A stretch of DNA of 27,913 nucleotides from the UHGV virus genome UHGV-0785300; one strand, given 5' to 3'. The DNA is from a virus. Shown here one piece after another: positions 1,745 through 19,882 of the stretch (position 1 is its first letter; every line of letters begins with the position of its first letter). The notes under the pieces were generated by a model that had not been told where the DNA came from, did no database searches, and saw only the letters and a list, made by a program, of their open reading frames with translations. The position numbers and the translations under genes were made by a program.

Positions 1745-1748
1745 CATC

Positions 1749-1766
1749 GGAGGGGTTCGCCCCTCC
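1749..1766 (+). promoter_or_regulatory. intercistronic GC-rich stem-loop (GGAGGGG-UUCG-CCCCUCC), no U-tract
   Basis: Perfect 7-bp inverted repeat with a UUCG tetraloop 4 nt after the topoisomerase stop; a GGAGGG SD for the next ORF follows. Confidence 0.4.
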
Positions 1767-1785
1767 TCACCTGGAGGGTTGTGCT

Positions 1786-2073
1786 ATGTTCTATCTCCGT
1801 TCTGCAGCACCTATGGTATTCATCATTTTCCTATTTGATTTCCTGGTTCCTCGCTTTATCAAAGAGGAGGTAGCGTTTGGTCTCTATGGTGAGACGGAAG
1901 ACCCAGAGGTCGATGAATATTACCCAATGTGCGCCCTGAAAGATATCGAGGAAGGGGAAGATGTTGCAATGGTCGGCACCATGCGTTCTTTCAATCTGTT
2001 TGGGCTTGCACTCTTTCCGAAACTGGTTGGTGAACTGCGCCCCTACGTTCCTGAAGCCACTGTAGATGGTTGA
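1786..2073 (+). CDS. hypothetical protein (95 aa)
   Basis: ORF with GGAGGG SD 9 nt upstream; no recognisable motif. Confidence 0.4.
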   Translation: MFYLRSAAPMVFIIFLFDFLVPRFIKEEVAFGLYGETEDPEVDEYYPMCALKDIEEGEDVAMVGTMRSFNLFGLALFPKLVGELRPYVPEATVDG

Positions 2074-2112
2074 TCATAACATAGCTTCTGAGCCCTAAAC
2101 TTCTGTCTATGG

Positions 2113-2388
2113 ATGATTCCTTGTATTTTCATTGTCCTGGGTGTGATATACTTCATCTGTATCGCATTAAGGGCGAAATCCAAGGTCTTGATGTGGATGT
2201 GGAACAACAATATTATTGAGCCTACGTTCACACCGAGCCTGCTGGTGAATGCATCTGATCCAGCATCACGTTGCCATCTGTTCCTGACCGACGGCAAAAT
2301 ACAATTCCTCGGCGACTGTTTCCATGATCTGAAGAACCAGACAGTGGATATGGTCGACATCTCTGAACCTGAAATTTGGATTGAATAG
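2113..2388 (+). CDS. hypothetical protein with hydrophobic N-terminus (91 aa)
   Basis: ATG ORF in operon context; N-terminal hydrophobic stretch IPCIFIVLGVIYFICIAL. Confidence 0.4.
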   Translation: MIPCIFIVLGVIYFICIALRAKSKVLMWMWNNNIIEPTFTPSLLVNASDPASRCHLFLTDGKIQFLGDCFHDLKNQTVDMVDISEPEIWIE

Positions 2389-2391
2389 ATT

Positions 2392-2802
2392 ATGAAATTA
2401 CTGGGATATTTTCGTGAACTCCCAACGGGCACTGAAGGCAAGTTGTTCTCACAGGTGAAAGGGGATGACATCGGCGATACGATGATTCCATTGTACACTC
2501 GTGAACTTCCTGTCGAAGGTGCCTGGGAGCGCCGTGTGGTCGCTGCCGCCAACAAATATGGTGATGTAATCGTCGTTGCTGACCGTCACCACAGCCGATT
2601 CATGAACAGCCAGCTCAAGATCCTGAAAGAAGCAGGCGTCATTAAATCCACCCATACCCGCGAACAGGGCTTCATCGACAACCAGGGCAACTTCCTCACT
2701 CGTGAAGAGGCGTGCATCGTAGCCCGTGAAGCTGGACAGATTAATCAGGTGCGCCTGAAGACAACCCCTTTCCGCGAACTCTTTTCCGAAGACCTCTATT
2801 GA
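2392..2802 (+). CDS. hypothetical protein (136 aa)
   Basis: ORF 4 nt after the previous stop; no confident motif. Confidence 0.4.
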   Translation: MKLLGYFRELPTGTEGKLFSQVKGDDIGDTMIPLYTRELPVEGAWERRVVAAANKYGDVIVVADRHHSRFMNSQLKILKEAGVIKSTHTREQGFIDNQGNFLTREEACIVAREAGQINQVRLKTTPFRELFSEDLY

Positions 2803-2809
2803 AGAAAAA

Positions 2810-2827
2810 GGCGGTATTATTACCGCC
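2810..2827. terminator. stem-loop GGCGGTA-TTAT-TACCGCC flanked by an A-run (5') and a weak T-rich tract (3')
   Basis: 7-bp perfect inverted repeat 8 nt after the stop at 2802; U-tract weak on the + strand, better on the - strand. Confidence 0.3.
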
Positions 2828-2852
2828 TCGACCTCTTGTTTGGTAACATCAA

Positions 2853-3095
2853 ATGAACCCAGAATTTGAAAATCTGTTCGAGCGATGCTTCGAACCAGGT
2901 TCTGTGTCCGGTTACATGGACCGCCTTTGTACTGCCATTGTAATACGCCTTGCTGCCAAGGGTATCGTTGTCAACACCATTATCCGCAATGGGAACAACT
3001 TTATCATGCAGATGACTGATTATCACCACCGCACAGGCATCATCCAGGTGTCATGTGTTGACAACAGCATTATTGAATGGAGACAGTACGCATGA
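2853..3095 (+). CDS. hypothetical protein (80 aa)
   Basis: ORF whose stop overlaps the next start (ATGA at 3092-3095). Confidence 0.35.
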   Translation: MNPEFENLFERCFEPGSVSGYMDRLCTAIVIRLAAKGIVVNTIIRNGNNFIMQMTDYHHRTGIIQVSCVDNSIIEWRQYA

Positions 3096-3709
3096 CAACC
3101 TATGTAATCAATGGCGGCGATTTACTGAAAGCCGCCTGTAGCTTCAATCTGATCGACATCTTTGCCCACGGTGCCAACTGTTGGTCTACCATGGGCGCTG
3201 GTATTGCCCTGCACATCGGTAACAACTTCCCAGCCCTGCGTGAAGTCGATGCTAACGACCCTCGTGGTCCAGAGCAACGCCTGGGTGGCATGTCCTATGC
3301 ATTTGACCACAGCACTGGTGTCTGGGGTGCGAACCTCTACACTCAGTTTTATCCAGGTCCGAATGCTCGCATGCCGTCTGTCATCAGTTCTGTTCAGACC
3401 CTGTTTGAGCAGGTGCATGAAATTGTGGAAGCAACTAAAGACGAAACTGTCTATGTCGGCCTGCCTGCTATCGGCTGTGGCATCGGCGGTCTGAATCTGT
3501 ATGACGTTGTCCGCCAGGTGGAAGCGCTGGCTGAAACCCTGTATGAAGACACTCGCTGCCGGGTTGTCCCCGTGTTCTACATCATGGAAGTAGACAAGTT
3601 TGCGGAAGACATGGAAAATCTGAACGCGCTGGACGATGATATCAACGTCGTCGATTCTGAAGAAGAAATTATCCGGGTGGAGGGGGTGAATAATGATATG
3701 CGCGTTTGA
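3092..3709 (+). CDS. macro-domain (ADP-ribose binding/hydrolase-like) protein
   Basis: YVINGGDLLKA...DIFAHGANCWSTMGAGIAL resembles the macro-domain NAAN..GGGV..AI phosphate-binding loop, and VYVGLPAIGCGIGGL resembles the second loop (FPAIStGvyG); start set at the ATG coupled to the upstream stop with a GGAGACAG SD. Confidence 0.6.
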   Translation: MTTYVINGGDLLKAACSFNLIDIFAHGANCWSTMGAGIALHIGNNFPALREVDANDPRGPEQRLGGMSYAFDHSTGVWGANLYTQFYPGPNARMPSVISSVQTLFEQVHEIVEATKDETVYVGLPAIGCGIGGLNLYDVVRQVEALAETLYEDTRCRVVPVFYIMEVDKFAEDMENLNALDDDINVVDSEEEIIRVEGVNNDMRV

Positions 3710-3944
3710 TCAAGAATTTTATAAAAAGGTCAATATCCTAAAACTTGTCATGTCTGGATCTAGTTCGAAAGAAGTATCAGAAATTTATTGTATTTCACAG
3801 GCCAGGGTGAGCCAGATTTTGAGGGAAACTATAGGGTTACTTTGCCCAGAGATAGAAATTAAGCGCGTCAACAAAAAGTTCATTGATGAAAATTATTATA
3901 CAGTAAAAGCCAAAATAAAGTGTTGGGAGAATAAACATGTATAA
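3693..3944 (+). CDS. small helix-turn-helix DNA-binding protein (83 aa), AT-rich gene
   Basis: HTH-like segment SKEVSEIYCISQARVSQILRE; strong SD GGAGGGGGTGA upstream; visibly lower G+C than neighbours. Confidence 0.45.
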   Translation: MICAFDQEFYKKVNILKLVMSGSSSKEVSEIYCISQARVSQILRETIGLLCPEIEIKRVNKKFIDENYYTVKAKIKCWENKHV

Positions 3945-4569
3945 ATCAAATTTTTTGGCTGTGGCCGACAGTGAAACCTTGGGGCGCTGGGATGATGCAG
4001 TCATGCTGTCTTGGGCACACACCATCGCCGACCTGACCAAGCGTTATACTCTTCAGCAGCTGGTTGAGGAGCGCACGACGTTCATTAAGCTGAATGTCAA
4101 AGAGCAGCTCGAACTTGGTCGCGTGAAGGACCAGGGGACGGTAGAATGGTGGTTGGGGGCGGGTAAACGTAACCCGTGTGATGCGGCTCGCGCCGTCAGT
4201 CTGTATCCCAAGGAAGATGACATCTCTATCTTCCAATTGGCCGATGAAATCCGCAAGGGTTGTCATCGTCTTGGGGTAGACCCGCGCTCGGTTGACTGGT
4301 GTGACCGTAACCTGTTTGATCTGCGCAAGGCTCAGCACATCATTGAGGTGACGTGTAAGCAGGACTCCAACGAGCCTTGGGATTACCACCACACCTTCGA
4401 CATCGTGAGTTGGCTGAAGGGTGTTGGACAGCAGGATCGGTATGCTGGTATCAAGGCGTGGGAACTGGAAGGTATGGTCTATCATGACCCTCGTTATGAC
4501 GCTGCGCTTGACTGGCTGCGTATTCAGAAGACCATGGAAGATCTGATGGGTCTGGAAGTGAAAGAATGA
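3937..4569 (+). CDS. DEDDh-family 3'-5' exonuclease (DexA-like)
   Basis: Exo motif I FLAVADSETLG (D-x-E), later acidic residues and motif III YHDPRYDA (H-x4-D); SD GGGAGAA upstream. Confidence 0.55.
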   Translation: MYKSNFLAVADSETLGRWDDAVMLSWAHTIADLTKRYTLQQLVEERTTFIKLNVKEQLELGRVKDQGTVEWWLGAGKRNPCDAARAVSLYPKEDDISIFQLADEIRKGCHRLGVDPRSVDWCDRNLFDLRKAQHIIEVTCKQDSNEPWDYHHTFDIVSWLKGVGQQDRYAGIKAWELEGMVYHDPRYDAALDWLRIQKTMEDLMGLEVKE

Positions 4570-4868
4570 TATTCTTCACAGTTATTGGCGCTATCGTAAC
4601 AGCTGGGGTGTTCGCAGCCATATTGGGCTACCTGTACTTCATGTTCCTTCATCCGTTATTTCAGGCGTTCAGTCTCACGAATTGGTACTTGGCCTGCCTA
4701 AAGGCCGACGGCGGCATGAACATGGCCTCTCTTCCTTACTGGCGGCTGGTGGCGCATTACTACACGGTCGGTGGCTGGCCTGGGGAAAGGACATGGAACT
4801 CTATCGGTGAGTGGTATGGAATAGGTCGATGGCGTATATTCCCTGATGAAGACGATCAAGCCCCGTGA
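4566..4868 (+). CDS. small membrane protein (100 aa)
   Basis: ATGA overlap with the upstream stop; N-terminal hydrophobic helix IFFTVIGAIVTAGVFAAILGYLYFMF. Confidence 0.4.
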   Translation: MIFFTVIGAIVTAGVFAAILGYLYFMFLHPLFQAFSLTNWYLACLKADGGMNMASLPYWRLVAHYYTVGGWPGERTWNSIGEWYGIGRWRIFPDEDDQAP

Positions 4869-4880
4869 GGGGCTTTTCTA
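4859..4880 (+). terminator. rho-independent terminator (AGCCCC-GUGA-GGGGCU followed by UUUUCU)
   Basis: 6-bp GC stem overlapping the stop at 4866-4868, followed by a T-run; the next gene has its own strong SD. Confidence 0.5.
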
Positions 4881-4932
4881 TATCCGGGATAGAGTATCAT
4901 TGGTTCACCAACGAATCCTCGGGAGAGGCGAT

Positions 4933-5274
4933 ATGAAACGTTCGGTTGTTGTAAATGACATCACGAGATTGATAAACCTTGTCAAAGATGTGTTTCCACA
5001 ACAGGTGGATGTCGAGTACGTGGGGAAGAACGGGAAGTGTTACCAGGTCGCTCTGTTGTTGAAGCACGTGTACCCTCAAGCAGAGATCCATTACAGTCAG
5101 ATTGAAGGTCATGTGTATACTCTGATTGATGGGCATTACTACGACATCGACGGCATCCACTTCAGTGTCCCACCGGACACGTGTTTGCTCGAACACAACA
5201 GAGGCCATAAACCCCATCGCTGGCATAAAGGGTTTGTGAACGTACCGATTTTAGAATGGTTGAGGAGACCATAA
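4933..5274 (+). CDS. hypothetical protein (113 aa)
   Basis: Internal ATG with strong SD GGGAGAGG, downstream of the terminator; an in-frame ATG at 4846 is also possible. Confidence 0.4.
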
Positions 5275-5834
5275 TGGCAGGAATTGTGAAGTATCTGGGC
5301 GACACCCACCTCGGACACAAGAAGATCTTCAAGCCCCGTGGGTTCGATACCCAAGAGGCGCATGATGCTGCAGTCATCGACACGATCTTCCAGGGAATGA
5401 AGTCTCGAGACGTCCTTGAACTTGCAGGCGACATCTGCTTCATCGGGGCTGAGGGGTTCATTCGCCTGATGCGCGAGGGTGCCAAGCGGAATATTGATGA
5501 GTTCAAGCGCCGCCCGGTTCCCGATGACTGGCGACCGAACTTTATCATCAGGGTGGCGCAAGGCAACCATGACAGCTTCAAGATGTTGATGCAGCTGTAT
5601 CAAGAGGGATGGATTAGCTCCTTTGGTGCGATGTATGAGCGTGATACTCCGGTTGGTCGTGTGCTGACCACTCACGTTCCTTATCAATTAGACCGCTGGG
5701 CGTATAATATCCATGGTCATCTTCACGAAAATATTCGCGAAGAGCGCGAATACCTGAACTGTAGTTGGGAACAATTCAAGCGCCCTGTAACCCTGTCTGA
5801 GTTGTTATACACCAATCTGGGGATTGAAATATGA
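5274..5834 (+). CDS. calcineurin-like metallophosphoesterase
   Basis: Metallophosphoesterase motif series GDTHLGH, AGDICF, GNHD, GHLH; TAATG overlap with the upstream stop and GAGGAGA SD. Confidence 0.6.
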
Positions 5835-6148
5835 AAATTTATTTTCCTGGCCAAAAAGTGCCTTCTGAAGTGCAGAAGGTCACAATCACAGGCTACCGGA
5901 AAGGGGATCCATATCTGCGCTTCTCCTCTCCATGTATCGTGAAGCAAACTAAAACGGGTTATTATATCAGGCCGATTGTGTTGATGGGCTGTGTAATGAC
6001 ATTCAGAGCTTCCTGTGAACACGTTCTTATACAAGGAAGTCCGAACATCGAAGGTGGAGAAACCCACACGAACTGCAAGCCGATTATCCCGACATGGTTG
6101 ATTATTGGTGTGCTTTCCGTTTTAGCTCTGAAAGGAGTATTGTCATGA
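5831..6148 (+). CDS. hypothetical protein with C-terminal hydrophobic segment (105 aa)
   Basis: ATGA start-stop overlap at both ends; C-terminal [16 protein letters not shown]. Confidence 0.4.
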
Positions 6149-6474
6149 AAAAGCCACGCATCACAGGACATCAACTCTGCGTCCTTTTAGGAATGTTGAA
6201 CTTTGAGAAAGGTCATTGCTGTTATGGTGAATGGTACTTTCATCCCAAATCCTGGACCAATGACAAGGGCAACACCGTCTGGACGTTCCGGGTATGTCCG
6301 AACGCTGGTGGTTTCACCTCCGTCAAAGGCAACCCCCGCACAGGGGCTTCCCTGCTCGCCAAGGGGTTGATCGAACCAGCTGGCTCAATGGTTCATGACG
6401 GTTCTTACGTGAACTGGCCGAACACTGAGGTGACGTTCTATCGCCTGACCGAACTCGGTAAATCTTATCTCTGA
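6145..6474 (+). CDS. hypothetical protein (109 aa)
   Basis: Start at the ATG (MKKPRITG) with AAAGGAG SD; the track start at 6094 overlaps the upstream gene. Confidence 0.4.
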   Translation: MKKPRITGHQLCVLLGMLNFEKGHCCYGEWYFHPKSWTNDKGNTVWTFRVCPNAGGFTSVKGNPRTGASLLAKGLIEPAGSMVHDGSYVNWPNTEVTFYRLTELGKSYL

Positions 6475-6497
6475 ATAAAGATTCAGCGGTTATTGAA

Positions 6498-6528
6498 GAA
6501 GGGGAGTATATACTCCCCTTCGTTTATT
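6498..6528 (+). terminator. rho-independent terminator (GAAGGGGAGU-AUAU-ACUCCCCUUC then GUUUAUU)
   Basis: Perfect 10-bp inverted repeat 24 nt after the stop at 6474, followed by a T-rich tract. Confidence 0.55.
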
Positions 6529-6542
6529 AAGAGGAACCGGAA

Positions 6543-6857
6543 ATGACCCCATTAAAAGAAATGTATGAGCGCCTGGCTGAACTGCAGGCGAAGGAAAAGC
6601 GCTTCTCAGAAGAAGAGACAGAGCTGTCCGAGCTGAACACTTTGATCGCCACTCGCGAGAAGTACCTGCAGCGCTACATTAATCACCCGCCGCGCATGGT
6701 AGACCGCGTCAGCACTATCATGGACCTGGATGAAGTTACTCCTGGCAAAGAAATCATTGTCAGGGAAGTCCACCAGATGGTCGCCATGGGTCAGATCTTT
6801 GGTCGTGCAGACCAAGACGACATGATCTTCCTCCTTGAAAAGAAACTGGTGATGTGA
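6543..6857 (+). CDS. hypothetical protein (104 aa)
   Basis: AAGAGGAA SD; stop overlaps the next ATG (TGATG). Confidence 0.45.
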   Translation: MTPLKEMYERLAELQAKEKRFSEEETELSELNTLIATREKYLQRYINHPPRMVDRVSTIMDLDEVTPGKEIIVREVHQMVAMGQIFGRADQDDMIFLLEKKLVM

Positions 6858-7363
6858 TGGCTATCAAACCCCGTATGTTATTTGCGCATATGCGCTCGGC
6901 TCATGCATACGCTCTGTCCAGCTATGCCCAGCGCCTGAAGGTTGGCTGTGTTATCGTTGACCCACGTGTTGACCAACCCCTGTCTATCGGTTGGAACGGG
7001 ACTGCTCCTGGCGCTCCTAATGTCTGTGAGAAGGAAGTAGACGGTCAACTGGTATCGGTGGGTGTTATCCACGCCGAGGAGAATGCTCTGAGCAAACTCC
7101 CCCAGCACACCGAAGACTGTTGTGGTCTGGTGATGTTTGTCACTCATAGTCCATGCCCAGAGTGCACCCGTCGTATTATCGACAGTGGCAAGATCGCTAA
7201 AGTGTTCTATGACCGACCATATCGTATCATAGACGGCATTATTGAAATGCTGGCTGCTGGGATTGAAGTATATCGCATGGTCGATCAGATTGTTGTAGTC
7301 CAGCATTCTGTGAAGAACGGCGAACTGGTATCCACCCCTGTTTTAGTGAACCCTGACAAATAA
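6857..7363 (+). CDS. cd: dCMP deaminase (cytidine/deoxycytidylate deaminase zinc-binding family)
   Basis: Zinc-binding motifs VIHAEENAL (H-A-E) and SPCPECTRRI (PCxxC); start set at ATG 6857 (the track start at 6854 is GTG). Confidence 0.75.
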   Translation: MAIKPRMLFAHMRSAHAYALSSYAQRLKVGCVIVDPRVDQPLSIGWNGTAPGAPNVCEKEVDGQLVSVGVIHAEENALSKLPQHTEDCCGLVMFVTHSPCPECTRRIIDSGKIAKVFYDRPYRIIDGIIEMLAAGIEVYRMVDQIVVVQHSVKNGELVSTPVLVNPDK

Positions 7364-7373
7364 GGAATTTATC

Positions 7374-7781
7374 ATGCGTTATGTAGATCGTATGCTCGGC
7401 AAAGACGAGCACGTTATTGCCTTCACCCGCCCGACTTGGTGGAGCGGTTTTTGGATTTACGTTCTGGTTATTTTAACGTTTATCCCAACATTTGGATTCA
7501 GCTTGTTATTTCTGATACCAACAATTTTAAATGTATTGACAACTGAATTCGCTGTGACTAACAAGCGCGTCATCGTCAAACGTGGTTTCATCCGTCGTGA
7601 TGCTGATGAGTTGCGCATTGGTAAGGTGGAGACAGTGAAGGTTGATCAGTCCATCACAGGCCGCATCTTGGGCTTCTCAACAATCAGCGTGATCGGTACG
7701 GGCGGCACCCACCTGCTGGCCAAGGGTTGTGCTGGTGGTAATGCGTTCCGCCAGAAGATCTACGATCACCTAGAAGACTGA
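7374..7781 (+). CDS. membrane protein with bacterial PH (YdbT/DUF304-like) domain
   Basis: Hairpin of two TM helices (WWSGFWIYVLVILTFIPTFGFSLLFLIPTIL) then a beta-rich segment resembling the bPH domain; AAGGAA SD. Confidence 0.45.
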   Translation: MRYVDRMLGKDEHVIAFTRPTWWSGFWIYVLVILTFIPTFGFSLLFLIPTILNVLTTEFAVTNKRVIVKRGFIRRDADELRIGKVETVKVDQSITGRILGFSTISVIGTGGTHLLAKGCAGGNAFRQKIYDHLED

Positions 7782-7783
7782 TC

Positions 7784-7996
7784 ATGATCATTTCAGGTTA
7801 CACCATCGATCTTTATTGTGAATGCTCAGATTGCAAGGCATGCAGTTGGGCTTGGGAAGAGCATCACCCCAAGTGCGGGTTCAAACAATACACTGGTGAG
7901 ACTTGGGGTGAGTGTGTCAAACAGGCGCGAGCAGACGGCTGGCAAATTGGGCGCGACAGGCATACCTGTTACGCCCCTGACCACAAGAGAAGTTAA
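7784..7996 (+). CDS. small Cys-rich protein (70 aa), putative zinc-binding
   Basis: CxCxxCxxC...HHxxC...C spacing; ATG 2 nt after the upstream stop; 3' end overlaps the convergent gene by 4 nt. Confidence 0.35.
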   Translation: MIISGYTIDLYCECSDCKACSWAWEEHHPKCGFKQYTGETWGECVKQARADGWQIGRDRHTCYAPDHKRS

Positions 7997-8607
7997 GGTA
8001 AGAGCAGTCCATCATCCCGCTCCGTTGGGGCGGGTTTAATCTCCTTCCGCATCTGTTCCTTCAGCACCCTGACACGCTCAGCATGGCGACGGTCTTGCAT
8101 CTCCATATCCCGTTTCTTTTTCGACTTCAATTCGAACTGTTTACGAACATCCGGATCTTCACCCGGAACAAGATGCTCTTCGGTCCATATAATGAACTTC
8201 CAGTTCTTCTTGGCACACAGTTCGCGGGTGGCCTCCCACTTGGCAGAATTGACCAACCAGGTTCGCATCGCATTGTTGAATGTCGACTCCTTCATGTTCG
8301 GAGTCTTCTTCGGCTGCTTGATCTGGTCTTTGGGCTTGATCTCAATGAGGGTGACCTGTAGTTCCTCTTGCCCTTCACGGCGCGTCCAGACCTTGAGGTC
8401 CATGAAGTAACGATGGGTGCGCCCGTCGACTGGGGAAATGTAAGGGATTACGGTCTCCTCACTAGACCACTTCACTATCGCGGAGTTCATATCACAGAAC
8501 TTGAAAGCCACCAACTCCAGCGAAGAGCGGAAGATGATGTTATTCACATTCCCCTGATACTTCTTGGGATTAACCGGGGTGTACTTCCCCTGAAGATAGT
8601 TGCTCAT
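7993..8607 (-). CDS. putative head completion protein (T4 gp4-like), PD-(D/E)xK nuclease fold with basic/acidic C-terminal tail
   Basis: Remembered gp4-family pattern NIIFRSSLE...FKFCD...VKWSSEExVIPYxSPVDGRxHRYFMD...LIEIKP (D...E-x-K nuclease-type motif). Confidence 0.4.
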   Translation of the reverse strand: MSNYLQGKYTPVNPKKYQGNVNNIIFRSSLELVAFKFCDMNSAIVKWSSEETVIPYISPVDGRTHRYFMDLKVWTRREGQEELQVTLIEIKPKDQIKQPKKTPNMKESTFNNAMRTWLVNSAKWEATRELCAKKNWKFIIWTEEHLVPGEDPDVRKQFELKSKKKRDMEMQDRRHAERVRVLKEQMRKEIKPAPTERDDGLLLP

Positions 8608-8657
8608 AATCTAGTCCTAAATAGCCATAACACTCTATCTATTTAAGGGCTGAGACC

Positions 8658-9626: not shown

Positions 9627-9637
9627 GAGAGGATGCC

Positions 9638-11577: not shown

Positions 11578-11588
11578 CGAGGTGACCC

Positions 11589-13535
11589 ATGGCACAGGAA
11601 GCAACGAACAATGATGTTGTCAAAGTTCTAGACAAGATCAAGGCGGAGATGATGCAGCGCAAACAACTCCGCGCTCAGAATGAAACCAACAAACAGCTTG
11701 ACCGGATGAACAAGAATCTGGCCAAGCTGGAATCTGCCACCAAACAGGGCACCAAGGCCGAGTCCAAGCCATTTGAAATCCGTATCCCGACAGTCAATGA
11801 GATCGTCATGGGATTCGCTCGCATGTCTCCGATCTTCACCCGCGACTTCAGCGTATGGATGAAGGATACTGTCGATGTGGGTAACGAAGGCAATCGGGAA
11901 CTGGAGAACATCGCAGGCAAGATTGACCGCCTCGGTGAGATCACCCGCATGCCAACAGATGACACGTCCTTGGAGTATCTTAACCTGATCTCAGACCAGC
12001 TGAAGTCTGCCAATGATGACACCCTCAAGCGCATGGACGAGCAGAGTGTGTCTCTGGTCCGCGTGGGATCATTCTTGAACATGATCGACGGGGTGATGAT
12101 CGAGGTTCGTGACGATGTTGCTGAACTGAAAAAGAACTCCGATGACACCCTTACTCGCTTGTCTAGCATTGAAAACAAGATTGGGCGCACGGGTGGTCAT
12201 ATCGTTGGAGTGTTGACACGCATCTTTGATGAAGACCAGAAGTGGCGTGAGAAGGACGAGATGCGCCGTGGGGAAACCGACAAAGAAACGGGTGGTCATC
12301 CTCAGGCGGGTTCTGTTATACCCAAAGACGATGACCAGAAAGACGATTCCTCCGGTATCGGGGCGGCGGTGGCGGCCATGCTTGGCCTGAATGCACTGAA
12401 GGGCTTCTTGCTCAAGCCGTTCAAGATCATCGGTGGTGTTGTCGGGACTTTCCTCGGCATGTTCTCCAAGCTGGGAGAAGGTATCACCAAACTTCTGGGC
12501 CCATTTGGGAAGGTGTTCAAGTTCCTGAAAGTCGGCCCACTGGCTCTCCTGTCTATGATCTGGGACTTCGGTAAAGGCTTCATTGATGCGAAGGAGATCC
12601 TGGGTAAAGGTGCTGTCACGATAGTTGACCGAGTACGGGCGGGGATATCAGAACTGGTTGGTGGATTTGGTGATCTATTTGACTGGGTGTCCAAGATCTT
12701 TGGCTTTGATACCGAGGCGGGTGAAACCCTGCGCAAATACACCCTCATGATCACTGAGGCTCCCGCTCGTTGGCTGAATGGTATTATCGACTGGATTAGC
12801 AACGACTTGTTTGCAGGGATCGGGAGAGACACGTCTCTTACGGATATCCCTGGCAAGTTAGCAGACAACCTACAGTCCGAGTTGATGAAGCTGGTAGACT
12901 GGATCACAGGGGGTATCAGTAGTGTGATCGACGAGGGCATGGGTGTGGCCAACAAGGTCATTGACGATATCAAGAAGGGATTTGCCGAAAATGTGAAGAA
13001 ACCTTTCTTCAATATGCTGAACACAATCACCAATGCGATGTTCGATATCGTTGACAAGTTCGTCAGCATCATCCCTGACGCTCTGGGTGGACAGACTGCG
13101 AAGCAGAAGATGGATGAGGCTCGCCAGTCTATGCTGATTGACACTGATGAGAATCCATCTCCTAATGTGACAGAGACCCAGCAGCCACAGACGCCAGCAC
13201 AACCGAACATCGATCCACAAACGCTGACTCCAATACCTTCTGGTGCGTCTTCGGATGACAAGAATATGACTAATGACCGCACCTCTCAGCTGAAAGCTGC
13301 GTATGGTTCTATCGGGGGTGGTACTCTGGGCGGGGCCATGCCATCACAAGGGAGGGCGCTGTCTAATATTGAGCAAGTACAAGGCGGCTATTCACCGCCT
13401 CCAGCCAGCGTCGTGATGCCAGTACAGCAGAATGTGGATGCTTCTAAGAGGATCAACACGACCAATAACTTCAACAGCTCATATCTTGAGCCTGAGAACA
13501 AAACAGATAATTCCCGCATCCTGTGGGAATGGTAA
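11589..13535 (+). CDS. putative tail tape-measure-like protein (648 aa)
   Basis: N-terminal coiled-coil-like charged region, then a Gly-rich hydrophobic segment (GIGAAVAAMLGLNALKGFLLKPFKIIGGVVGTFLGMF...) typical of tape-measure proteins; GAGGTGA SD. Confidence 0.35.
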   Translation: MAQEATNNDVVKVLDKIKAEMMQRKQLRAQNETNKQLDRMNKNLAKLESATKQGTKAESKPFEIRIPTVNEIVMGFARMSPIFTRDFSVWMKDTVDVGNEGNRELENIAGKIDRLGEITRMPTDDTSLEYLNLISDQLKSANDDTLKRMDEQSVSLVRVGSFLNMIDGVMIEVRDDVAELKKNSDDTLTRLSSIENKIGRTGGHIVGVLTRIFDEDQKWREKDEMRRGETDKETGGHPQAGSVIPKDDDQKDDSSGIGAAVAAMLGLNALKGFLLKPFKIIGGVVGTFLGMFSKLGEGITKLLGPFGKVFKFLKVGPLALLSMIWDFGKGFIDAKEILGKGAVTIVDRVRAGISELVGGFGDLFDWVSKIFGFDTEAGETLRKYTLMITEAPARWLNGIIDWISNDLFAGIGRDTSLTDIPGKLADNLQSELMKLVDWITGGISSVIDEGMGVANKVIDDIKKGFAENVKKPFFNMLNTITNAMFDIVDKFVSIIPDALGGQTAKQKMDEARQSMLIDTDENPSPNVTETQQPQTPAQPNIDPQTLTPIPSGASSDDKNMTNDRTSQLKAAYGSIGGGTLGGAMPSQGRALSNIEQVQGGYSPPPASVVMPVQQNVDASKRINTTNNFNSSYLEPENKTDNSRILWEW

Positions 13536-14195
13536 TCAGATTCCGTGGGCTTGTATTAGCTCACGGAGTCTCTGTTTTGAATATGTGGTATCCTCATCCG
13601 GAACCACAGCATTCGTCTTCCTGAGCAAGAACGCCTCTGAGTTCCAGTAGATGTCATCACGCAGAATCGTATCGTATAGATGAATGAACCCAACGATCTT
13701 GTTCAGACCGACAAGGAACCAAATCGGGAACTTCTTGATGATGATGTCTGTTAGCAACGGTGGATGACCTGTACCCGTCCCCTTGATGTACTCAATGAAG
13801 GTACAGTTGCGCTCCCTTATGGCAGGGATCATCTCCCGCTCGAACTCCTCAAGGAAGTTATATGTGAAGTTCTCGTACAGCTTACGGTATTCATCATAAT
13901 TGGCCTGAGCCTGGCGTGTAAGCAATGTCGTCACCCAGGTCTTGGGTGATTTGATGAAGTTGGCAATGATGTAGTTCTCTACCACTTCACCCTGTGATGA
14001 CTCGAACCGACGGGCAAGGCGAGCAAACTGTTTGCACACGGCCTCCTTCGCCAAGAACGTCTCGAACTTGTAATTCATAGGTCCATACAAGCTGTAATCG
14101 AAGTCCTTAGTGGTGAAGTGCAGCTTGATCGCCATGAAGACACAGTAAACGTTGAACGCCCGCTCGAACTCCATCTTCTGCCACTCTGTTAGCAT
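13536..14195 (-). CDS. putative helicase-loading protein (T4 gp59-like)
   Basis: Weak remembered similarity to gp59 (NVYCVFMAIKLHF..., ENYIIANFIKSPKTW...); convergent with the structural block. Confidence 0.4.
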   Translation of the reverse strand: MLTEWQKMEFERAFNVYCVFMAIKLHFTTKDFDYSLYGPMNYKFETFLAKEAVCKQFARLARRFESSQGEVVENYIIANFIKSPKTWVTTLLTRQAQANYDEYRKLYENFTYNFLEEFEREMIPAIRERNCTFIEYIKGTGTGHPPLLTDIIIKKFPIWFLVGLNKIVGFIHLYDTILRDDIYWNSEAFLLRKTNAVVPDEDTTYSKQRLRELIQAHGI

Positions 14196-14443
14196 TTGCG
14201 TTCCTCTTCTTTAATAAATTGCAATAACTCTTCCATCAGCCCTTTCTTCTTGATGAACTGTAACACCAGGATGAAGCGACGGAAGGAGCGGGGGACAACA
14301 CGATAACCCTTCGCCCAGTAGTTCACAACATTAGAACAATCCAATAAACGAGCCAGCCCAGATTGTGACACCCCGAGGCTCAGCAGAACCTTGTACATGT
14401 ACTTCTTGTCATTTACCGGAAGCTCTTTCATTCTTAAACTCAT
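14189..14443 (-). CDS. small HTH (Cro/XRE-like) DNA-binding protein
   Basis: LGVSQSGLARLLDCSNVVNYWAKG matches the XRE-type HTH pattern. Confidence 0.4.
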   Translation of the reverse strand: MSLRMKELPVNDKKYMYKVLLSLGVSQSGLARLLDCSNVVNYWAKGYRVVPRSFRRFILVLQFIKKKGLMEELLQFIKEEERKC

Positions 14444-14666
14444 GATACTTGTCCGCTAATGTCTTGTAATATTTGTTAGGATTATACTCCTGTTTGGAAT
14501 AGTGAAGAGTAAGGGAAGCACTCAGACCTAGGATAATCACGACAACGAGCGCCTTGTGGTTATTGATCTCGGGAATAGCTATCCACACCAGCAGCATCAC
14601 AAGCGAGCTGATAATCAAGGACAGCAAGAACGTTAATGCAATCACCAATGCGAATAGCTCGTCCAT
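14409..14666 (-). CDS. small membrane protein (85 aa, two predicted TM helices)
   Basis: Hydrophobic segments LFALVIALTFLLSLIISSLVMLLVWIAI and ALVVVIILGLSASLTL. Confidence 0.35.
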   Translation of the reverse strand: MDELFALVIALTFLLSLIISSLVMLLVWIAIPEINNHKALVVVIILGLSASLTLHYSKQEYNPNKYYKTLADKYHEFKNERASGK

Positions 14667-14670
14667 CAGA

Positions 14671-14904
14671 TCACACCTCTTTGTGATTCTTCATCTTGCG
14701 AACAGTGCCCACAAACCCAAGATCCTTCCCGCAATGGGTGCAGATAGCATGGCAAGCATGGTTCTCACGATAGGTGCTGTGTTTGCAGCGCCATTGCTTG
14801 AACGCCGGACGGGCAACTAGGATCACGGCGATCAAGAAGACGATGCCGGATATCTGAAGTTCAACCAAGAACTTCGCCCACCAGAAACTCATACACTCAC
14901 CCAT
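14671..14904 (-). CDS. small membrane-anchored Cys/His-rich protein
   Basis: Start placed at the ATG overlapping the ligase stop; TM helix ISGIVFLIAVILVA then CxH...CxHxxCxHC. Confidence 0.3.
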   Translation of the reverse strand: MGECMSFWWAKFLVELQISGIVFLIAVILVARPAFKQWRCKHSTYRENHACHAICTHCGKDLGFVGTVRKMKNHKEV

Positions 14905-16327
14905 TACTCTTCTCCAACAGGAATGCGATGTTTTCGATGTACGCTTTCTGTATCGCATAGACTTCATCCAGTGTGTTGGCCACTTTCTTGTCAATGCGGA
15001 CTTCTACAAGGCGAGGTAGGAACAAAGACTTCATCGCATCATCGGTCTTATCCTGTACGCCATTGGAGAGCACTGCGGCGATCTTGCCAATGTAGTCGCC
15101 CTGGTTCTCCCACATATGGCGTCTCAGCTCATCTGAGATCCCTGATACGCCAACAACAAGCAGGCTGTCGGAAGTTTTACAAATCAGTGAGCCAAAAGTC
15201 TTGGCGTGTTTACCCTTCTTGTCAGCCTCGTTGAAGCCCACGATTTCAAGGTCACACTCAACCTCCATCTTCAGCTTCAGACCTTCAGAAGAAGTACCAT
15301 CTTCCCACGGCATGTCTGCGGCCTTACATATCGTGCCTTCTTCTTTGCGAGCCAGCGCGTCTTTGAAGTGGTCGACGGCTTCGGCAAATGAGTGAACAAC
15401 GCGGGTTTCTTGAACCTGAACCAGACCGTCGTCTTCATCAAACAGTTGCTGGATAATATCGAAGCGGCGCTCATACGGGGTGTCCACGCGCTGGGCGTTG
15501 AACCAGTTGTCGTACGGGATAACATCCCACACCCGGTAGATCACCCGATAACGATCTTCTAGGGGTTCTCCTGTCTGAATCACGCTGTTGAGTTTACCGT
15601 TACCGACAGCACGAGGCAGGATGGTATTCGACTTGAGGTCAACAACGAGAAGTTCACCATGGAACACACTCTCACCAATCCCCGCATCGTAGATCAGGTC
15701 TTTGAACACCAGTGAAAGGTTATCAACCGAACCACCTGCGATAAGGGAACCGGAGCGAGAGCGAATCTCAGGCTCTTTATTGTACCGACATATGATGTTG
15801 GCGAACATGCCGTCTGACTTCAGCTGGCTGTAGACGCCGCGCTTGAAGTCCATCTTCTTCAGCAGGTCAATCGTCATGTTGTCATAACGATGATACGGAA
15901 GAATGTTGATCAGGCGTCCAGTGCCTCCGGCGGCGTTGAATGCAGCGTTGATGCCCTTCTCAGCGATACCCGCCTTGATATCACGGTCTAGGATCATCTG
16001 AATGAGTTCGTGGTATTGGGGGTCCATCTTCAGGGCGACAGAGGCCAACAGGGCATCAGCCTTTTGGCCACCGACAAGGCGCTGCGCCATCTGGTCGAGG
16101 ACGCCATAGACTTCGCTGATGTCATCAGTCTTCTCACGGACGAGCATGCGAGGGTACGCGCTGAGCTTCAACTCAGTCCGATAGAACGACGTCATTGGGT
16201 CATAGACATATTGCAGGAAGTCTGCCAAGTCTGGGTTGTTCTTGAATGCTTCGGTCAGCACAGCTTTCTTCGCATTGCTGCCTTTGGTTTCGCGAAGTCG
16301 GTGGACTGTTTCAAGGATAGGGATCAT
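14897..16327 (-). CDS. ATP-dependent DNA ligase (T4 gp30-like)
   Basis: Adenylation motif I LKSDG (KxDG) in YSQLKSDGMFANI; N-terminal ILETVHRL...GSNAKKAVL resembles the T4 ligase N-terminus; 476 aa. Confidence 0.8.
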   Translation of the reverse strand: MIPILETVHRLRETKGSNAKKAVLTEAFKNNPDLADFLQYVYDPMTSFYRTELKLSAYPRMLVREKTDDISEVYGVLDQMAQRLVGGQKADALLASVALKMDPQYHELIQMILDRDIKAGIAEKGINAAFNAAGGTGRLINILPYHRYDNMTIDLLKKMDFKRGVYSQLKSDGMFANIICRYNKEPEIRSRSGSLIAGGSVDNLSLVFKDLIYDAGIGESVFHGELLVVDLKSNTILPRAVGNGKLNSVIQTGEPLEDRYRVIYRVWDVIPYDNWFNAQRVDTPYERRFDIIQQLFDEDDGLVQVQETRVVHSFAEAVDHFKDALARKEEGTICKAADMPWEDGTSSEGLKLKMEVECDLEIVGFNEADKKGKHAKTFGSLICKTSDSLLVVGVSGISDELRRHMWENQGDYIGKIAAVLSNGVQDKTDDAMKSLFLPRLVEVRIDKKVANTLDEVYAIQKAYIENIAFLLEKSNG

Positions 16328-16336
16328 GTGGTGTCT

Positions 16337-16369
16337 CCAGGGTTATATGTGCTGTTATTATAACCCTGG
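16337..16369 (-). promoter_or_regulatory. 11-bp perfect stem-loop in the ligase 5' leader, overlapping the SD
   Basis: CCAGGGTTATA-(11 nt)-TATAACCCTGG; the 3' arm ends in ...CCCUGG and runs directly into GAGACACCAC-AUG, so the GGAGA SD is partly inside the stem. Confidence 0.4.
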
Positions 16370-16441
16370 GGACTTCAATAGATTATTGGCGGGTGTGGGA
16401 TCTTGCTTGGCTGATAATGACCGCAAATGTTTCTGTATCCA

Positions 16442-16975
16442 TCATGAACCCTCCGCCCAGACAAAGCCGTATTTGTTCAGTAGATCCACGGTTTCACCAC
16501 GAGCGCGAGCCACGATAGATTCTACTGATTCTTCCACCTCGAGTGGTGGGCAACCAGCCTTTTCGTACGTGTTAAGCAAGAGAGCAAGTTCTTTTACGAA
16601 CTCTTCTTGTTCCTCTCCTCCAAAGAACCACATCCGCAGATCGTCGCGTTCCCCGTGCTTGTTCAGAGAAGCCATATTCACGTACACGTAATCGTTTTTC
16701 TGAACAACGTCATTTATCTCCGGCCAATGCAACCCAGTCATCGCATAATTGAAGAATTCCGAAGGGGTGACTTCATCCGACAAATAATACAAACGGAAGT
16801 CACCGCTGGGGCCATGTTTGCAAGTTCTATCCAGCATTATTTTGTGGATGTCAACACGGTCTCGCTTCAAGACTTCCCGTTTCTTCAGTCGACCTCTCAG
16901 CCAGGCACTGCCAATACACAAAAGAACGAAAGCAGTAGCACCAGTGAGTATGTTGAAAGAATCAATAATGTTCAT
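16442..16975 (-). CDS. membrane-anchored hypothetical protein
   Basis: Start set at the internal ATG (MNIIDSF..., GGGGA SD) because the first ATG lies inside a hairpin; N-terminal TM helix ILTGATAFVLLCIGSAW. Confidence 0.4.
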   Translation of the reverse strand: MNIIDSFNILTGATAFVLLCIGSAWLRGRLKKREVLKRDRVDIHKIMLDRTCKHGPSGDFRLYYLSDEVTPSEFFNYAMTGLHWPEINDVVQKNDYVYVNMASLNKHGERDDLRMWFFGGEEQEEFVKELALLLNTYEKAGCPPLEVEESVESIVARARGETVDLLNKYGFVWAEGS

Positions 16976-16992
16976 AAGATCCCCGAAGTGAT

Positions 16993-17012
16993 AGAGGGGC
17001 ATAAGCCCCTCT
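16993..17012 (-). promoter_or_regulatory. intercistronic GC-rich stem-loop (AGAGGGGC-N4-GCCCCUCU)
   Basis: Perfect 8-bp inverted repeat between the PspA-like stop and the next gene; no U-tract. Confidence 0.35.
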
Positions 17013-19864: not shown

Positions 19865-19882
19865 TCTTGGTGTTCGATTGAC

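What the first reader, a model, noticed from the sequence alone, without database searches (positions are those of the whole stretch)
1749..17012. Family of GC-rich GGGG/CCCC hairpins at gene junctions
Four intercistronic hairpins share G4/C4 cores: 1749..1766 (UUCG tetraloop, no U-tract), 4859..4874 and 6498..6521 (with U-tracts, likely terminators), and 16993..17012 (no U-tract, and burying the first ATG of the downstream ORF). They may punctuate operons as terminators, attenuators or RNA-stability/processing elements.
Basis: seen in the sequence. Interest (0 to 1): 0.45.

Follow-up and report, generated by a model that had tools for sequence, protein, structure and literature searches.

The report
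Phage gene-junction hairpins: terminators and stabilisers
The four GC-rich hairpins are real, conserved RNA stem-loops between genes of a ViI-like (Ackermannviridae) phage, but they are the ordinary terminator and intercistronic hairpins long known in T4-like phages, and three of the four were already predicted as terminators in a sister phage.

Summary
The window is an Agtrevirus-like Ackermannviridae phage, 97-98% identical to Escherichia phages RPN242 and ZQ1. All four hairpins exist at the stated coordinates (dG -12 to -17 kcal/mol). They are not chance: the window has 5 G4/C4 hairpins against 0.47 expected from shuffles. In the ZQ1 genome, 32 of 68 strong intergenic hairpins carry G4/C4 arms, against 2 of 26 in coding sequence.

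Each hairpin is kept across genera. s1, s3 and s4 show compensatory stem changes; the s2 stem is invariant and only its loop varies.

- **s2 (4858-4875) and s3 (6498-6521):** they have U-tracts and are most likely intrinsic terminators or attenuators.
- **s1 (1749-1766) and s4 (16993-17012):** they lack U-tracts and sit 4 nt after a stop codon. They are most likely RNA 3'-end barriers or pause elements.

The genes there are on the minus strand, the + ORF is an antisense shadow, and no conserved start codon is buried.

Orthologues of s2, s3 and s4 are listed as predicted terminators in phiSboM-AG3 (2011). PolyG/polyC junction stem-loops (PeSLs) and UUCG hairpins are known in T4-type phages. This is ordinary, with low novelty.

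The parts
1749..1766 (+). s1: 7-bp stem-loop GGAGGGG/UUCG/CCCCUCC with no U-tract. It lies 4 nt after the TAA stop of the topoisomerase II medium-subunit gene and 19 nt before the ATG at 1786.
   Evidence: Kept in 18 of 19 related loci, with stems GGAGGGG, GGAGGG or GGGGGC. Two pairs change compensatorily and one pair is lost on both arms together. Loops are uucg, caaaa, uuuug (inverted), uaaa and ugaauu. No relative has a U-tract.
1760..1778 (+). Alternative pairing at s1: the 3' arm CCCCUCC can pair with the true Shine-Dalgarno GGAGGG (1773-1778) of gene 1786..2073.
   Evidence: Alternative hairpin of -11.1 kcal/mol. In a 61-nt context P(3' arm pairs with SD) = 0.71 against 0.17 for the s1 hairpin. 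Predicted only in this phage and its closest relatives, not in other genera.
4858..4881 (+). s2: 7-bp stem-loop AAGCCCC/GUGA/GGGGCUU followed by UUCUAU, read as an intrinsic terminator or attenuator. The stop codon TGA (4866-4868) of gene 4566..4868 lies in the loop.
   Evidence: The stem and the UUUUCUAUAU tail are invariant in three groups of relatives. The loops vary only among GNRA tetraloops (GUGA, GUAA, GAAA). The orthologue is Torf027 in phiSboM-AG3.
6498..6529 (+). s3: 10-bp perfect palindrome GAAGGGGAGU/AUAU/ACUCCCCUUC followed by GUUUAUUA, read as an intrinsic terminator between genes ..6474 and 6543..
   Evidence: z = -5.4. Kept in the more distant loci that look Kuttervirus-like, as AAGGGGAAG/guaua/CUUCCCCUU with two compensatory pairs and a retained U-tract. 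The orthologue is Torf031 in phiSboM-AG3.
16993..17012 (-). s4: 8-bp stem-loop AGAGGGGC/UUAU/GCCCCUCU on the minus (transcribed) strand with no U-tract. It lies 4 nt after the TAA stop (17019-17017) of the PspA/IM30-family gene 17017..17625(-). It lies 17 nt upstream of the conserved start ATG (16975-16973) of the membrane-protein gene.
   Evidence: z = -5.5. Seven sequence variants counting phiSboM-AG3 (Ag3), with two compensatory pairs. Loops are uuau, auaa (inverted), gaaa, aaa and aua. The orthologue is Torf049 (minus strand) in phiSboM-AG3.
22326..22343 (-). It lies 7 nt after the UvsX stop, inside codons 9-15 of the overlapping next gene.
   Evidence: Present in 19 of the 20 related loci examined. 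The stem is the same in 18; L049 has GGGGAGGG/CCCUCCCC and L050 shows no hairpin. Loops among those with the common stem are GAGA, GCAA, GUGA, GUAA, UCAC (inverted) and GUGG.
2808..2829 (+). Junction hairpin of the same functional kind but without a G4 core: AGGCGGUA/UUAU/UACCGCCU, with no U-tract on the + strand.
   Evidence: The orthologue is listed as Torf021 in phiSboM-AG3.
8016..8034 (+). Terminator of the + strand gene block, CCCGCUCC/guu/GGGGCGGG followed by UUUAAU. It lies inside the 3' end of the convergent head-completion gene.
   Evidence: Annotated as a terminator in the phiSboM-AG3 record and listed as Torf036.
13538..13571 (.). 14-bp stem-loop at the convergent junction where the + block meets the - block.
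   Evidence: -23.0 kcal/mol. Annotated as stem_loop in the phiSboM-AG3 record.
19841..19867 (-). Terminator-like hairpin AGAAGCCCAGU/caagu/ACUGGGCUUUU followed by AAAUU.
   Evidence: The orthologue is Torf057 in phiSboM-AG3.
20570..20608 (-). Hairpin whose loop carries TATAAT, preceded by TTCAAT (TTCAAT-N16-TATAAT). A composite promoter/stem-loop resembling a PeSL.
26804..26842 (-). Hairpin GAAGGGGUUGCUA/uaa/UAGCAGCUCCUUU with a U-tract and TATAAT at its apex, preceded by TTCAAT (N15). An overlapping promoter and terminator.
   Evidence: The orthologues are Porf067 (early promoter) and Torf069 (terminator) in phiSboM-AG3.

Best explanation
The four hairpins are RNA stem-loops that punctuate the early and middle operons of a ViI-like (Ackermannviridae, Agtrevirus-type) phage. 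This is the same arrangement long known from T4-type phages. They are not a single repeated element. They are a set of independently conserved junction hairpins built in a common style: a short G-run/C-run stem, often capped by a UUCG or GNRA tetraloop.

Two of them, s2 (4858-4875) and s3 (6498-6521), carry U-tracts. They most likely act as intrinsic (Rho-independent) terminators or leaky attenuators for host RNA polymerase. In s2 the stop codon sits in the loop, so a closely following ribosome would be expected to suppress termination (inference).

The other two, s1 (1749-1766) and s4 (16993-17012, minus strand), together with a fifth at 22326-22343(-), have no U-tract and begin 4-7 nt after a stop codon. 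They most likely act at the RNA level as 3'-exonuclease barriers that stabilise the upstream cistron after endonucleolytic cleavage, and/or as pause or weak attenuation signals (inference).

Shown here: existence, enrichment at junctions, strand, and conservation (with compensatory changes at s1, s3 and s4). Inferred: termination, stabilisation and ribosome effects.
For: Identity of the window: 97-98% identical to Escherichia phages RPN242 and ZQ1 of Ackermannviridae/Aglimvirinae. Gene strands come from their annotation.

Structure.

Non-randomness:
- The window has 22 strong hairpins against 7.4 in shuffles, and 5 G4/C4 hairpins against 0.47.
- ZQ1 has 98 against 36.6, and 28 G4/C4 against 1.3.
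- 68 of 94 strong hairpins on the transcribed strand lie in the 12.4% of ZQ1 that is annotated as intergenic.
- 37 of those 68 have tetraloops, including 11 UNCG (9 UUCG) and 7 GNRA.

Selection on structure: s1, s3 and s4 each show two compensatory base-pair changes across genera. s1 also shows paired loss of one base pair. Loops vary freely and are even inverted, while stems persist.

Terminator reading of s2 and s3: a G+C-rich stem followed by a conserved U-tract. Their orthologues were predicted as terminators in phiSboM-AG3: Torf027, Torf031, and Torf049 for s4 (PMC3121705).

Precedent in T4-type phages:
- UUCG hairpins occur in T4 mRNA (PMC4371310).
Against: - No transcript data exist here, so neither termination nor stabilisation is demonstrated. 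I found no Ackermannviridae transcriptome paper in the library.
- The U-tracts of s2 (UUUUCU) and s3 (GUUUAUU) are short or interrupted, so efficiency may be low.
- For s1, thermodynamic folding of a 61-nt context prefers a different structure in which CCCCUCC pairs with the downstream Shine-Dalgarno (P = 0.71 against 0.17).
- Why G-run/C-run stems are preferred is unexplained.
- The ZQ1 annotation is incomplete, so some 'intergenic' hairpins may lie in unannotated small genes.
Confidence: 0.7

Rival explanations
1. The hairpins are PeSL-type composite cassettes: an early promoter plus a stem-loop. On this view their main significance is at the DNA level, as recombination points for modular gene shuffling, as described for T4-type phages RB49 and phi1.
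For: - PeSL stem-loops are described as polyG/polyC tracts placed between or over the -35 and -10 boxes and followed by an SD and a start codon (PMC2839356; PMC4122927).
- The window contains two such composites, TTCAAT-N15/16-TATAAT with the -10 in the hairpin loop, at 20570-20608 and 26804-26842. One was annotated as both promoter and terminator in phiSboM-AG3.
- TTCAAT is enriched upstream of junction hairpins in ZQ1: 9 observed against 1.3 expected.
- The s2 junction differs in gene content between relatives.
- s4 lies inside a 1.8-kb segment that RPN242 lacks.
Against: - No sigma-70-like promoter overlaps s1, s2 or s4 on the transcribed strand.
- s3 has only a TATATA/TATACT loop and a TTGAAG 8-10 nt upstream, which is the wrong spacing.
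- The breakpoints of the 16387-18210 indel are not at any G4/C4 hairpin.
- s1, s3, s4 and 22326-22343 are stably orthologous across genera rather than mobile.
Confidence: 0.12
2. The hairpins without U-tracts are translational control elements. Their C-rich 3' arm (CCCCUCC, resembling the anti-Shine-Dalgarno) or the stem itself masks the ribosome-binding site of the downstream gene. Expression would then depend on upstream translation or refolding.
For: - At s1 the 3' arm pairs with the true SD GGAGGG: duplex of -11.6 kcal/mol in ZQ1, the strongest of 25 junctions.
- In the window P = 0.71, rising to 0.86 when a terminating ribosome occludes the 5' arm.
- In RPN242/L012 the SD-masking hairpin is the MFE.
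- The 5' arms (GGAGGGG, AGAGGGG, GGGGGAG) mimic an SD, and the hairpins start 4-7 nt after stop codons, which is within a terminating ribosome's footprint.
Against: - The alternative pairing is not conserved in other genera, where the post-stop hairpin is predicted with P = 0.6-1.0 in all but one sequence variant (L005/L006, 0.27).
- Genome-wide, 3' arms are no more complementary to their own downstream SD region than to permuted ones: -4.28 against -4.15 +/- 0.36, p = 0.35.
- At s4 the real SD and ATG (16975-16973) lie outside the hairpin, and the loop ATG is absent from all more distant relatives.
Confidence: 0.1
3. The hairpins are chance palindromes in a 50% G+C genome with no function.
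For: - Lax terminator-pattern scans find no excess over shuffles: 20 against 16.1 +/- 4.1 and 10 against 10.5.
- The z-score of s1 alone is modest: -1.9, with 10 of 200 shuffles folding as well.
Against: - Strong hairpins are about 3-fold over shuffles, and G4/C4 hairpins 10- to 20-fold.
- Density is about 19-fold higher in intergenic DNA.
- Each hairpin is conserved, with compensatory changes at s1, s3 and s4, in genomes whose flanking sequence is only 65-80% identical.
Confidence: 0.02

Closest known systems
Predicted rho-independent terminators of Shigella phage phiSboM-AG3 (Anany et al. 2011, Virol J 8:242, Table S2)
   Same: These are direct orthologues. Torf027 (gccccgtgaggggctttt) corresponds to s2. 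Torf031 (gggggagtatatacttccccttagtttatt) corresponds to s3. Torf049 (minus strand, gaggggcgaaagcccctcattcattt) corresponds to s4. Torf021, Torf036, Torf057 and Torf069 match the other junction hairpins of the window.
   Different: - The s1 orthologue is present in phiSboM-AG3 (Ag3) but was not listed, because the authors' search was anchored on polyT.
- In this window s4 has a poorer U-tract (AUCACUUC) than in Ag3 (AUUCAUUU).
- Those predictions were never tested experimentally.
PeSLs (promoter-early stem-loops) of T4-type phages RB49/phi1, T4/PST and KVP40/nt-1 (Arbiol et al. 2010; Comeau et al. 2014)
   Same: [quoted passage not shown] They act as terminators or attenuators and are followed by an SD and a start codon. 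Two hairpins in the window (20570-20608, 26804-26842) do carry a -10 box in the loop.
   Different: The four hairpins of the finding lack the defining sigma-70-like promoter. They are not at indel breakpoints and are stably orthologous. The phage family is also different: Ackermannviridae rather than T4-type phages in the strict sense.
C(UUCG)G and GNRA tetraloop hairpins in intercistronic regions of phage T4 mRNA (Tuerk et al. 1988, from my own knowledge; summarised in PMC4371310)
   Same: Short G+C stems capped by UUCG or GNRA tetraloops between cistrons of a large lytic phage. In ZQ1, 9 UUCG and 7 GNRA loops occur among the 37 tetraloop hairpins of 68 strong intergenic hairpins.
   Different: s1 has a G:C closing pair, G(UUCG)C, not the extra-stable C(UUCG)G. 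Most other UUCG hairpins in ZQ1 do have C...G closing pairs.
Bacterial intercistronic stem-loop mRNA stabilisers (REP-type elements, for example in malE-malF; from my own knowledge)
   Same: Stable stem-loops without a U-tract immediately 3' of a cistron, thought to block 3'-to-5' exonucleases and set differential expression within an operon. This is the working model for s1, s4 and 22326-22343.
   Different: There is no shared REP consensus. These stems are far shorter (7-8 bp), phage-encoded, and the function is untested.

Membership tests
Intrinsic (Rho-independent) terminator | G+C-rich stem of about 5-14 bp with a short loop, on the transcribed strand | tested here: met
   All four qualify: stems of 7-10 bp, 4-nt loops, dG -12.5 to -16.7 kcal/mol. 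The strand was checked against relatives' annotation.
Intrinsic (Rho-independent) terminator | U-rich tract immediately 3' of the stem | tested here: inconclusive
   Met for s2 (GGGGCUU-UUCUAUAU) and s3 (GUUUAUUA); both are flagged. Not met for s1 (UCACCUGG, 2 U in 8) or s4 on the minus strand (AUCACUUC, 3 U in 8). None of the s1 orthologues has a U-tract.
Intrinsic (Rho-independent) terminator | Transcripts actually end at the site | not testable with these tools
   No RNA data are available, and no Ackermannviridae transcriptome study was found.
PeSL (promoter-early stem-loop) cassette | Sigma-70-like early promoter (-35/-10) overlapping or adjacent to the stem-loop | tested here: not met
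   No promoter-like site overlaps s1, s2 or s4 on the transcribed strand. s3 has only a TATATA/TATACT loop with TTGAAG at the wrong spacing. By contrast, 20570-20608 and 26804-26842 do have TTCAAT-N15/16-TATAAT.
PeSL (promoter-early stem-loop) cassette | Stem-loop with a polyG tract followed by a polyC tract, intergenic, followed by an SD and a start codon | tested here: met
   s1, s3 and s4 have the G-run first, and an SD plus ATG follow 17-21 nt after the stem. s2 has the C-run first.
PeSL (promoter-early stem-loop) cassette | Located at the boundaries of insertions, deletions or replacements between close relatives | tested here: not met
   The 16387-18210 indel relative to RPN242 has no G4/C4 hairpin at either breakpoint. 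At s2 the divergence from L004 starts about 50 nt 3' of the hairpin.
T4-type C(UUCG)G extra-stable tetraloop hairpin | UUCG loop closed by a C:G pair | tested here: not met
   s1 has a UUCG loop but a G:C closing pair (GGGG-UUCG-CCCC). s2 has a GNRA loop (GUGA). s3 and s4 have AU-only loops.
SD- or start-codon-sequestering translational operator hairpin | The Shine-Dalgarno or start codon of the real downstream gene lies within the conserved stem | tested here: not met
   s4: the conserved ATG is at 16975-16973 with SD GGGG(G)A, both 3' of the hairpin. The loop ATG is absent from Ag3, L022, L024, L025 and L026, and the PHROG match starts at residue 10. s1: the SD is outside the hairpin, and the alternative SD pairing is lineage-specific. 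The genome-wide test was negative.
Intercistronic mRNA-stabilising stem-loop (REP-like function) | Stable stem-loop without a U-tract directly 3' of a cistron, conserved in structure | tested here: met
   s1, s4 and 22326-22343 start 4-7 nt after stop codons. Their stems are conserved, with compensatory changes at s1 and s4.
Intercistronic mRNA-stabilising stem-loop (REP-like function) | Protects the upstream RNA from 3' exonucleolytic decay | not testable with these tools
   This requires mRNA half-life and 3'-end mapping experiments.
Any curated RNA family (Rfam 15) | Match at the gathering threshold | tested here: not met
   No matches anywhere in the window.

The most novel reading that the evidence does not exclude
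The post-stop hairpins without U-tracts (s1, s4, 22326-22343) all have a 5' arm that mimics a Shine-Dalgarno sequence (GGAGGGG, AGAGGGG, GGGGGAG). Each starts 4-7 nt after a stop codon and is conserved across Ackermannviridae genera. They could form a dedicated class of element coupled to translation. A terminating ribosome would melt the stem, or its anti-SD would bind the mimic. That would set re-initiation, ribosome release or refolding onto the downstream ribosome-binding site. The s1 arrangement (SD-mimic, anti-SD, SD) would be the clearest example of such a switch.
Probability: 0.08. Interest if true: 0.5.

Novelty: already known. Interest (0 to 1): 0.15.

Why it matters
It matters little beyond annotation. 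The result gives a checked map of transcript punctuation in this window: five G4/C4 hairpins plus six other junction hairpins. It corrects the strand and the start codon around 16975-17020. It also shows that about half of the junction hairpins in this phage group lack a U-tract, so terminator finders anchored on polyT miss them.

If RNA 3'-end mapping were done on an Ackermannviridae phage, these conserved hairpins without U-tracts would be the sites to examine. They could separate termination from RNA stabilisation. This group is used in phage biocontrol work (e.g. PMC3296691).

Tried and rejected
1. SD and ATG sequestration at s4 on the minus strand. In the window the 5' arm AGAGGGG looks like an SD and an ATG sits in the loop. 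I rejected this because all more distant relatives lack the loop ATG, while all keep GGGG(G)A-N4-ATG further downstream. The PHROG match also starts at residue 10.

2. Two classes by orientation: G-run first meaning no U-tract, C-run first meaning terminator. There is no association in ZQ1 (G-first 18 U-poor against 19 U-rich; C-first 14 against 15).

3. A family-wide anti-SD switch. The permutation test was negative (p = 0.35). Only s1 stands out, and only in this lineage.

4. PeSL-type recombination at the 1.8-kb indel. The breakpoints are not at the hairpins.

5. A link to RegB (GGAG-cleaving) processing. The ZQ1 protein annotated 'putative RegB' has no Pfam hit and matches only a PHROG of unknown function, so this was not pursued. 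RNA secondary structure is also reported to protect GGAG from T4 RegB (PMC3014915).

6. ATTGAAG upstream of s3, of 2808-2829 and of the ligase-leader hairpin looked like a shared box. It occurs 21 times in the window, so it is not special.

7. MAFFT alignments A1 and A2 put the 3' arms of different genera out of register. I therefore did not use the count of structure pairs. Stems were instead compared arm by arm from explicit hairpin calls.

8. Rfam gave no hits.

9. Literature searches for an Ackermannviridae transcriptome found nothing.

Full report
**What the window is.** Megablast places the window in Ackermannviridae/Aglimvirinae. It is 97-98% identical to Escherichia phages vB_EcoM-RPN242, YX22, A221 and ZQ1, and about 91% identical to the Agtrevirus phages Ag3, SKML-39 and MK-13. 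From the annotation of RPN242, ZQ1 and phiSboM-AG3, genes run on the + strand from 1 to 13535, except the head-completion gene 7993..8607. From 13536 onward they run on the minus strand. The region encodes early and middle functions (topoisomerase II, DexA, dCMP deaminase, ligase, helicase, UvsX, dUTPase, thymidylate synthase) and a block of baseplate genes.

**Check of the observation.**
- s1, 1749-1766: GGAGGGG/UUCG/CCCCUCC, -13.2 kcal/mol.
- s2, 4858-4875: AAGCCCC/GUGA/GGGGCUU, -12.5 kcal/mol. The TGA stop of gene 4566..4868 is in the loop.
- s3, 6498-6521: a perfect 24-nt palindrome, -16.7 kcal/mol.
- s4, 16993-17012: -15.9 kcal/mol on the minus strand.

s2 and s3 are followed by U-rich tails. 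s1 and s4 are not.

Dinucleotide-preserving shuffles show that this is not chance. The window holds 22 hairpins of dG <= -11 against 7.4 +/- 2.4 expected, and five with both a G4 and a C4 arm against 0.47 expected, with a maximum of 2 in 30 shuffles. The fifth is 22326-22343 on the minus strand: GGGGGAG/GAGA/CUCCCCC, 7 nt after the UvsX stop and inside the first codons of the overlapping next gene.

Other junction hairpins without a G4/C4 core lie at 2808-2829, 8016-8034, 13538-13571, 19841-19867, 20570-20598 and 26804-26832. Most of the longer intergenic gaps in the window carry one.

**Correction at s4.** That ORF is an antisense shadow. The real genes are on the minus strand.
- 17017..17625(-) is a PspA/IM30-family protein (Pfam 3.7e-10; phrog_1203).
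- 16442..17002(-) is a membrane protein (phrog_11433).
- Both are annotated on that strand in ZQ1 and Ag3.

On the true strand the hairpin starts 4 nt after the TAA stop of the PspA-like gene. In this phage, and in the near-identical ZQ1 and L023, an in-frame ATG happens to sit in the loop (17002-17000). The loop is AUAA, GAAA, AAA or AUA in Ag3 and four more distant relatives, with no ATG. All of them keep GGGG(G)A-N4-ATG further downstream. The conserved start is therefore the ATG at 16975-16973. The PHROG profile match begins at residue 10 of the long ORF, and the Ag3 annotation agrees. Nothing is buried.

I fetched the whole genome of the close relative ZQ1 (149,115 bp) and scanned the transcribed strand.
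- 94 hairpins have dG <= -11. Of these, 68 lie in the 12.4% of the genome annotated as intergenic, roughly a 19-fold higher density.
- G4/C4 arms occur in 32 of 68 intergenic hairpins but in only 2 of 26 coding hairpins (Fisher p = 2.6e-4). The count is 28 against 1.3 in shuffles.
- Tetraloops dominate (37 of 68). UUCG occurs 9 times, UNCG 11 times and GNRA 7 times.
- Half of the intergenic hairpins have three or fewer U in the 8 nt after the stem.
- Hairpins sit close to the preceding stop codon, at a median of 9.5-12.5 nt.

It is a style, not one repeated element: arms, loops and flanks differ from site to site.

**Conservation.** I used 19 loci found with the DexA exonuclease, 5 with the PspA-like protein and 21 with UvsX.
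- s1 is present at the same junction in 18 of 19 loci, spanning three sequence groups. The stems are GGAGGGG, GGAGGG and GGGGGC. A:U changes to G:C at one pair, and G:C flips to C:G at another. One pair is lost on both arms together in RPN242. The loops are UUCG, CAAAA, UAAA and UGAAUU. One phage carries the exact inversion of another's loop (CAAAA against UUUUG). None has a U-tract.
- s2 keeps an invariant stem and the tail UUUUCUAUAU. Its loop changes only among GNRA tetraloops: GUGA, GUAA and GAAA.
- s3 is kept in the more distant loci that look Kuttervirus-like, with two compensatory pairs and a U-tract.
- s4 has seven sequence variants counting Ag3, with two compensatory pairs, variable loops, and again a loop inversion (UUAU against AUAA).
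- The UvsX-proximal hairpin is present in 19 of the 20 loci examined, 18 of them with an unchanged stem; the loops are GAGA, GCAA, GUGA, GUAA, UCAC and GUGG.

Variable loops (including inversions) on persistent stems, with compensatory stem changes at s1, s3 and s4, are the signature of selection on the stem-loop itself.

**Mechanism.**

*s2 and s3.* They have the anatomy of intrinsic terminators. Because the genes downstream are co-oriented, they are likely leaky attenuators that grade expression along the operon. At s2 the stop codon lies in the loop. A ribosome reaching it would cover the 3' arm, so termination should be favoured on untranslated or uncoupled transcripts. This is inference.

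*s1, s4 and 22326-22343.* They lack the U-tract that defines an intrinsic terminator. Their position directly after a stop codon, their stability and their conservation fit the role ascribed to REP-type intercistronic stem-loops in bacteria: a barrier to 3' exonucleases that stabilises the upstream cistron, or a pause site. This too is inference.

*Translational alternative.* I tested it directly. At s1 the 3' arm CCCCUCC is complementary to the true SD GGAGGG of gene 1786. This is lineage-specific. In the other genera the post-stop hairpin dominates in all but one sequence variant (L005/L006, P = 0.27). Across 25 ZQ1 junctions, 3' arms are no more complementary to their own SD regions than to permuted ones (p = 0.35). 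I keep it as a minor rival for s1 only.

**Comparison with what is known.**
- The genome paper for phiSboM-AG3, the type Agtrevirus, reports 'forty intergenic rho-independent terminators' (PMC3121705). Its Table S2 lists the orthologues of s2 (Torf027), s3 (Torf031) and s4 (Torf049, minus strand). It also lists orthologues of four other hairpins of this window. Only the s1 orthologue is missing, because the search was anchored on polyT. It is present in the Ag3 sequence.
- LIMEstone1 was likewise reported with 31 factor-independent terminators (PMC3296691).
- UUCG tetraloop hairpins were first noticed in T4 mRNA (PMC4371310).

The four hairpins fail the PeSL membership test because no sigma-70-like promoter overlaps them and they are not at indel breakpoints. 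Two other hairpins of the window (20570-20608 and 26804-26842) do carry TTCAAT-N15/16-TATAAT with the -10 box in the loop. One of these is listed in Ag3 both as promoter Porf067 and as terminator Torf069. No Rfam family matches anywhere in the window.

**Verdict.** The elements are ordinary phage junction hairpins, and most of them have already been predicted in the literature for a sister phage.

The open points are minor:
- why G-run/C-run stems are favoured;
- what the conserved hairpins without U-tracts do;
- whether the SD-masking alternative at s1 is used.

Interest is low.

Noticed in passing
window 26816-26842(-), 20581-20608(-), 18013-18038(-): A promoter-like motif, TTCAAT-N12-16-TATAAT, occurs on the transcribed strand in intergenic gaps. 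In two of the three cases the TATAAT sits at the apex of a strong hairpin, so promoter and terminator overlap. In ZQ1, 15 of 24 matches to TTCAAT-N13-17-TAnnnT are intergenic, and TTCAAT is enriched upstream of junction hairpins (9 observed against 1.3 expected). The spacing is shorter than a canonical sigma-70 promoter.
   Followed up: partly
s1 orthologues L016 vs L018; s4 window vs L022; 22326-22343 orthologues L033 vs L035: Between related phages the loop of an otherwise identical palindromic hairpin is exactly reverse-complemented: CAAAA/TTTTG, TTAT/ATAA and GTGA/TCAC. The hairpins therefore seem to undergo DNA inversion across their own arms.
   Followed up: partly
window 1742-1770(+) and 17019-16989(-): s1 and s4 share more than the G4 core: TAACATC-[G/A]GAGGGG...CCCCTC-(A)TCAC, including the stop codon and the 4-nt spacer. 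The CATC spacer is not conserved at either site in more distant genera. This may be chance or gene conversion within Agtrevirus.
   Followed up: partly
window 16387-18210: A 1.8-kb segment is replaced by 37 bp in RPN242 and is missing from several other close relatives. It carries three minus-strand genes: a membrane protein, a PspA/IM30-family protein and a 113-aa ORF. ZQ1, Ag3 and Gloob keep it.
   Followed up: partly
window 17017-17625(-): A phage-encoded PspA/IM30-family protein (Pfam PF04012, E = 3.7e-10; phrog_1203). It is annotated only as 'hypothetical' or 'e.6-like' in relatives.
   Followed up: no
window 16337-16369(-): An 11-bp A+U-rich stem (CCAGGGUUAUA...UAUAACCCUGG, 11-nt loop) lies immediately upstream of the ligase Shine-Dalgarno (GGAGA). 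It is conserved in RPN242. My hairpin scan missed it because the loop exceeds 9 nt.
   Followed up: no
ZQ1 genome (L027-L029), e.g. record positions 91940, 106395, 125043, 135773; window 4878-4884: A repeated translation-initiation cassette, ...TTGAAA-N3-6-(A/G)GGAA-CTATATC-ATG, precedes at least ten minus-strand genes in ZQ1. 14 of 24 CTATATC sites are intergenic. The same heptamer follows the s2 terminator in the window, but there it is not next to a start codon.
   Followed up: partly
ZQ1 record 92683-93072(-) (L028 42683-43072): The protein annotated 'putative RegB protein' has no Pfam match at E <= 0.01. It hits only phrog_600, which has unknown function. The annotation is unsupported by these searches.
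   Followed up: partly
ZQ1 record 103060-117549(-): A subgroup of junction hairpins shares the stem GGGCGGGG/CCCCGCC followed by (C)ATTTGAA(A). There are five or more copies in the early region. This looks like a true repeated element, unlike the four hairpins of the finding. None lies in the window.
   Followed up: no
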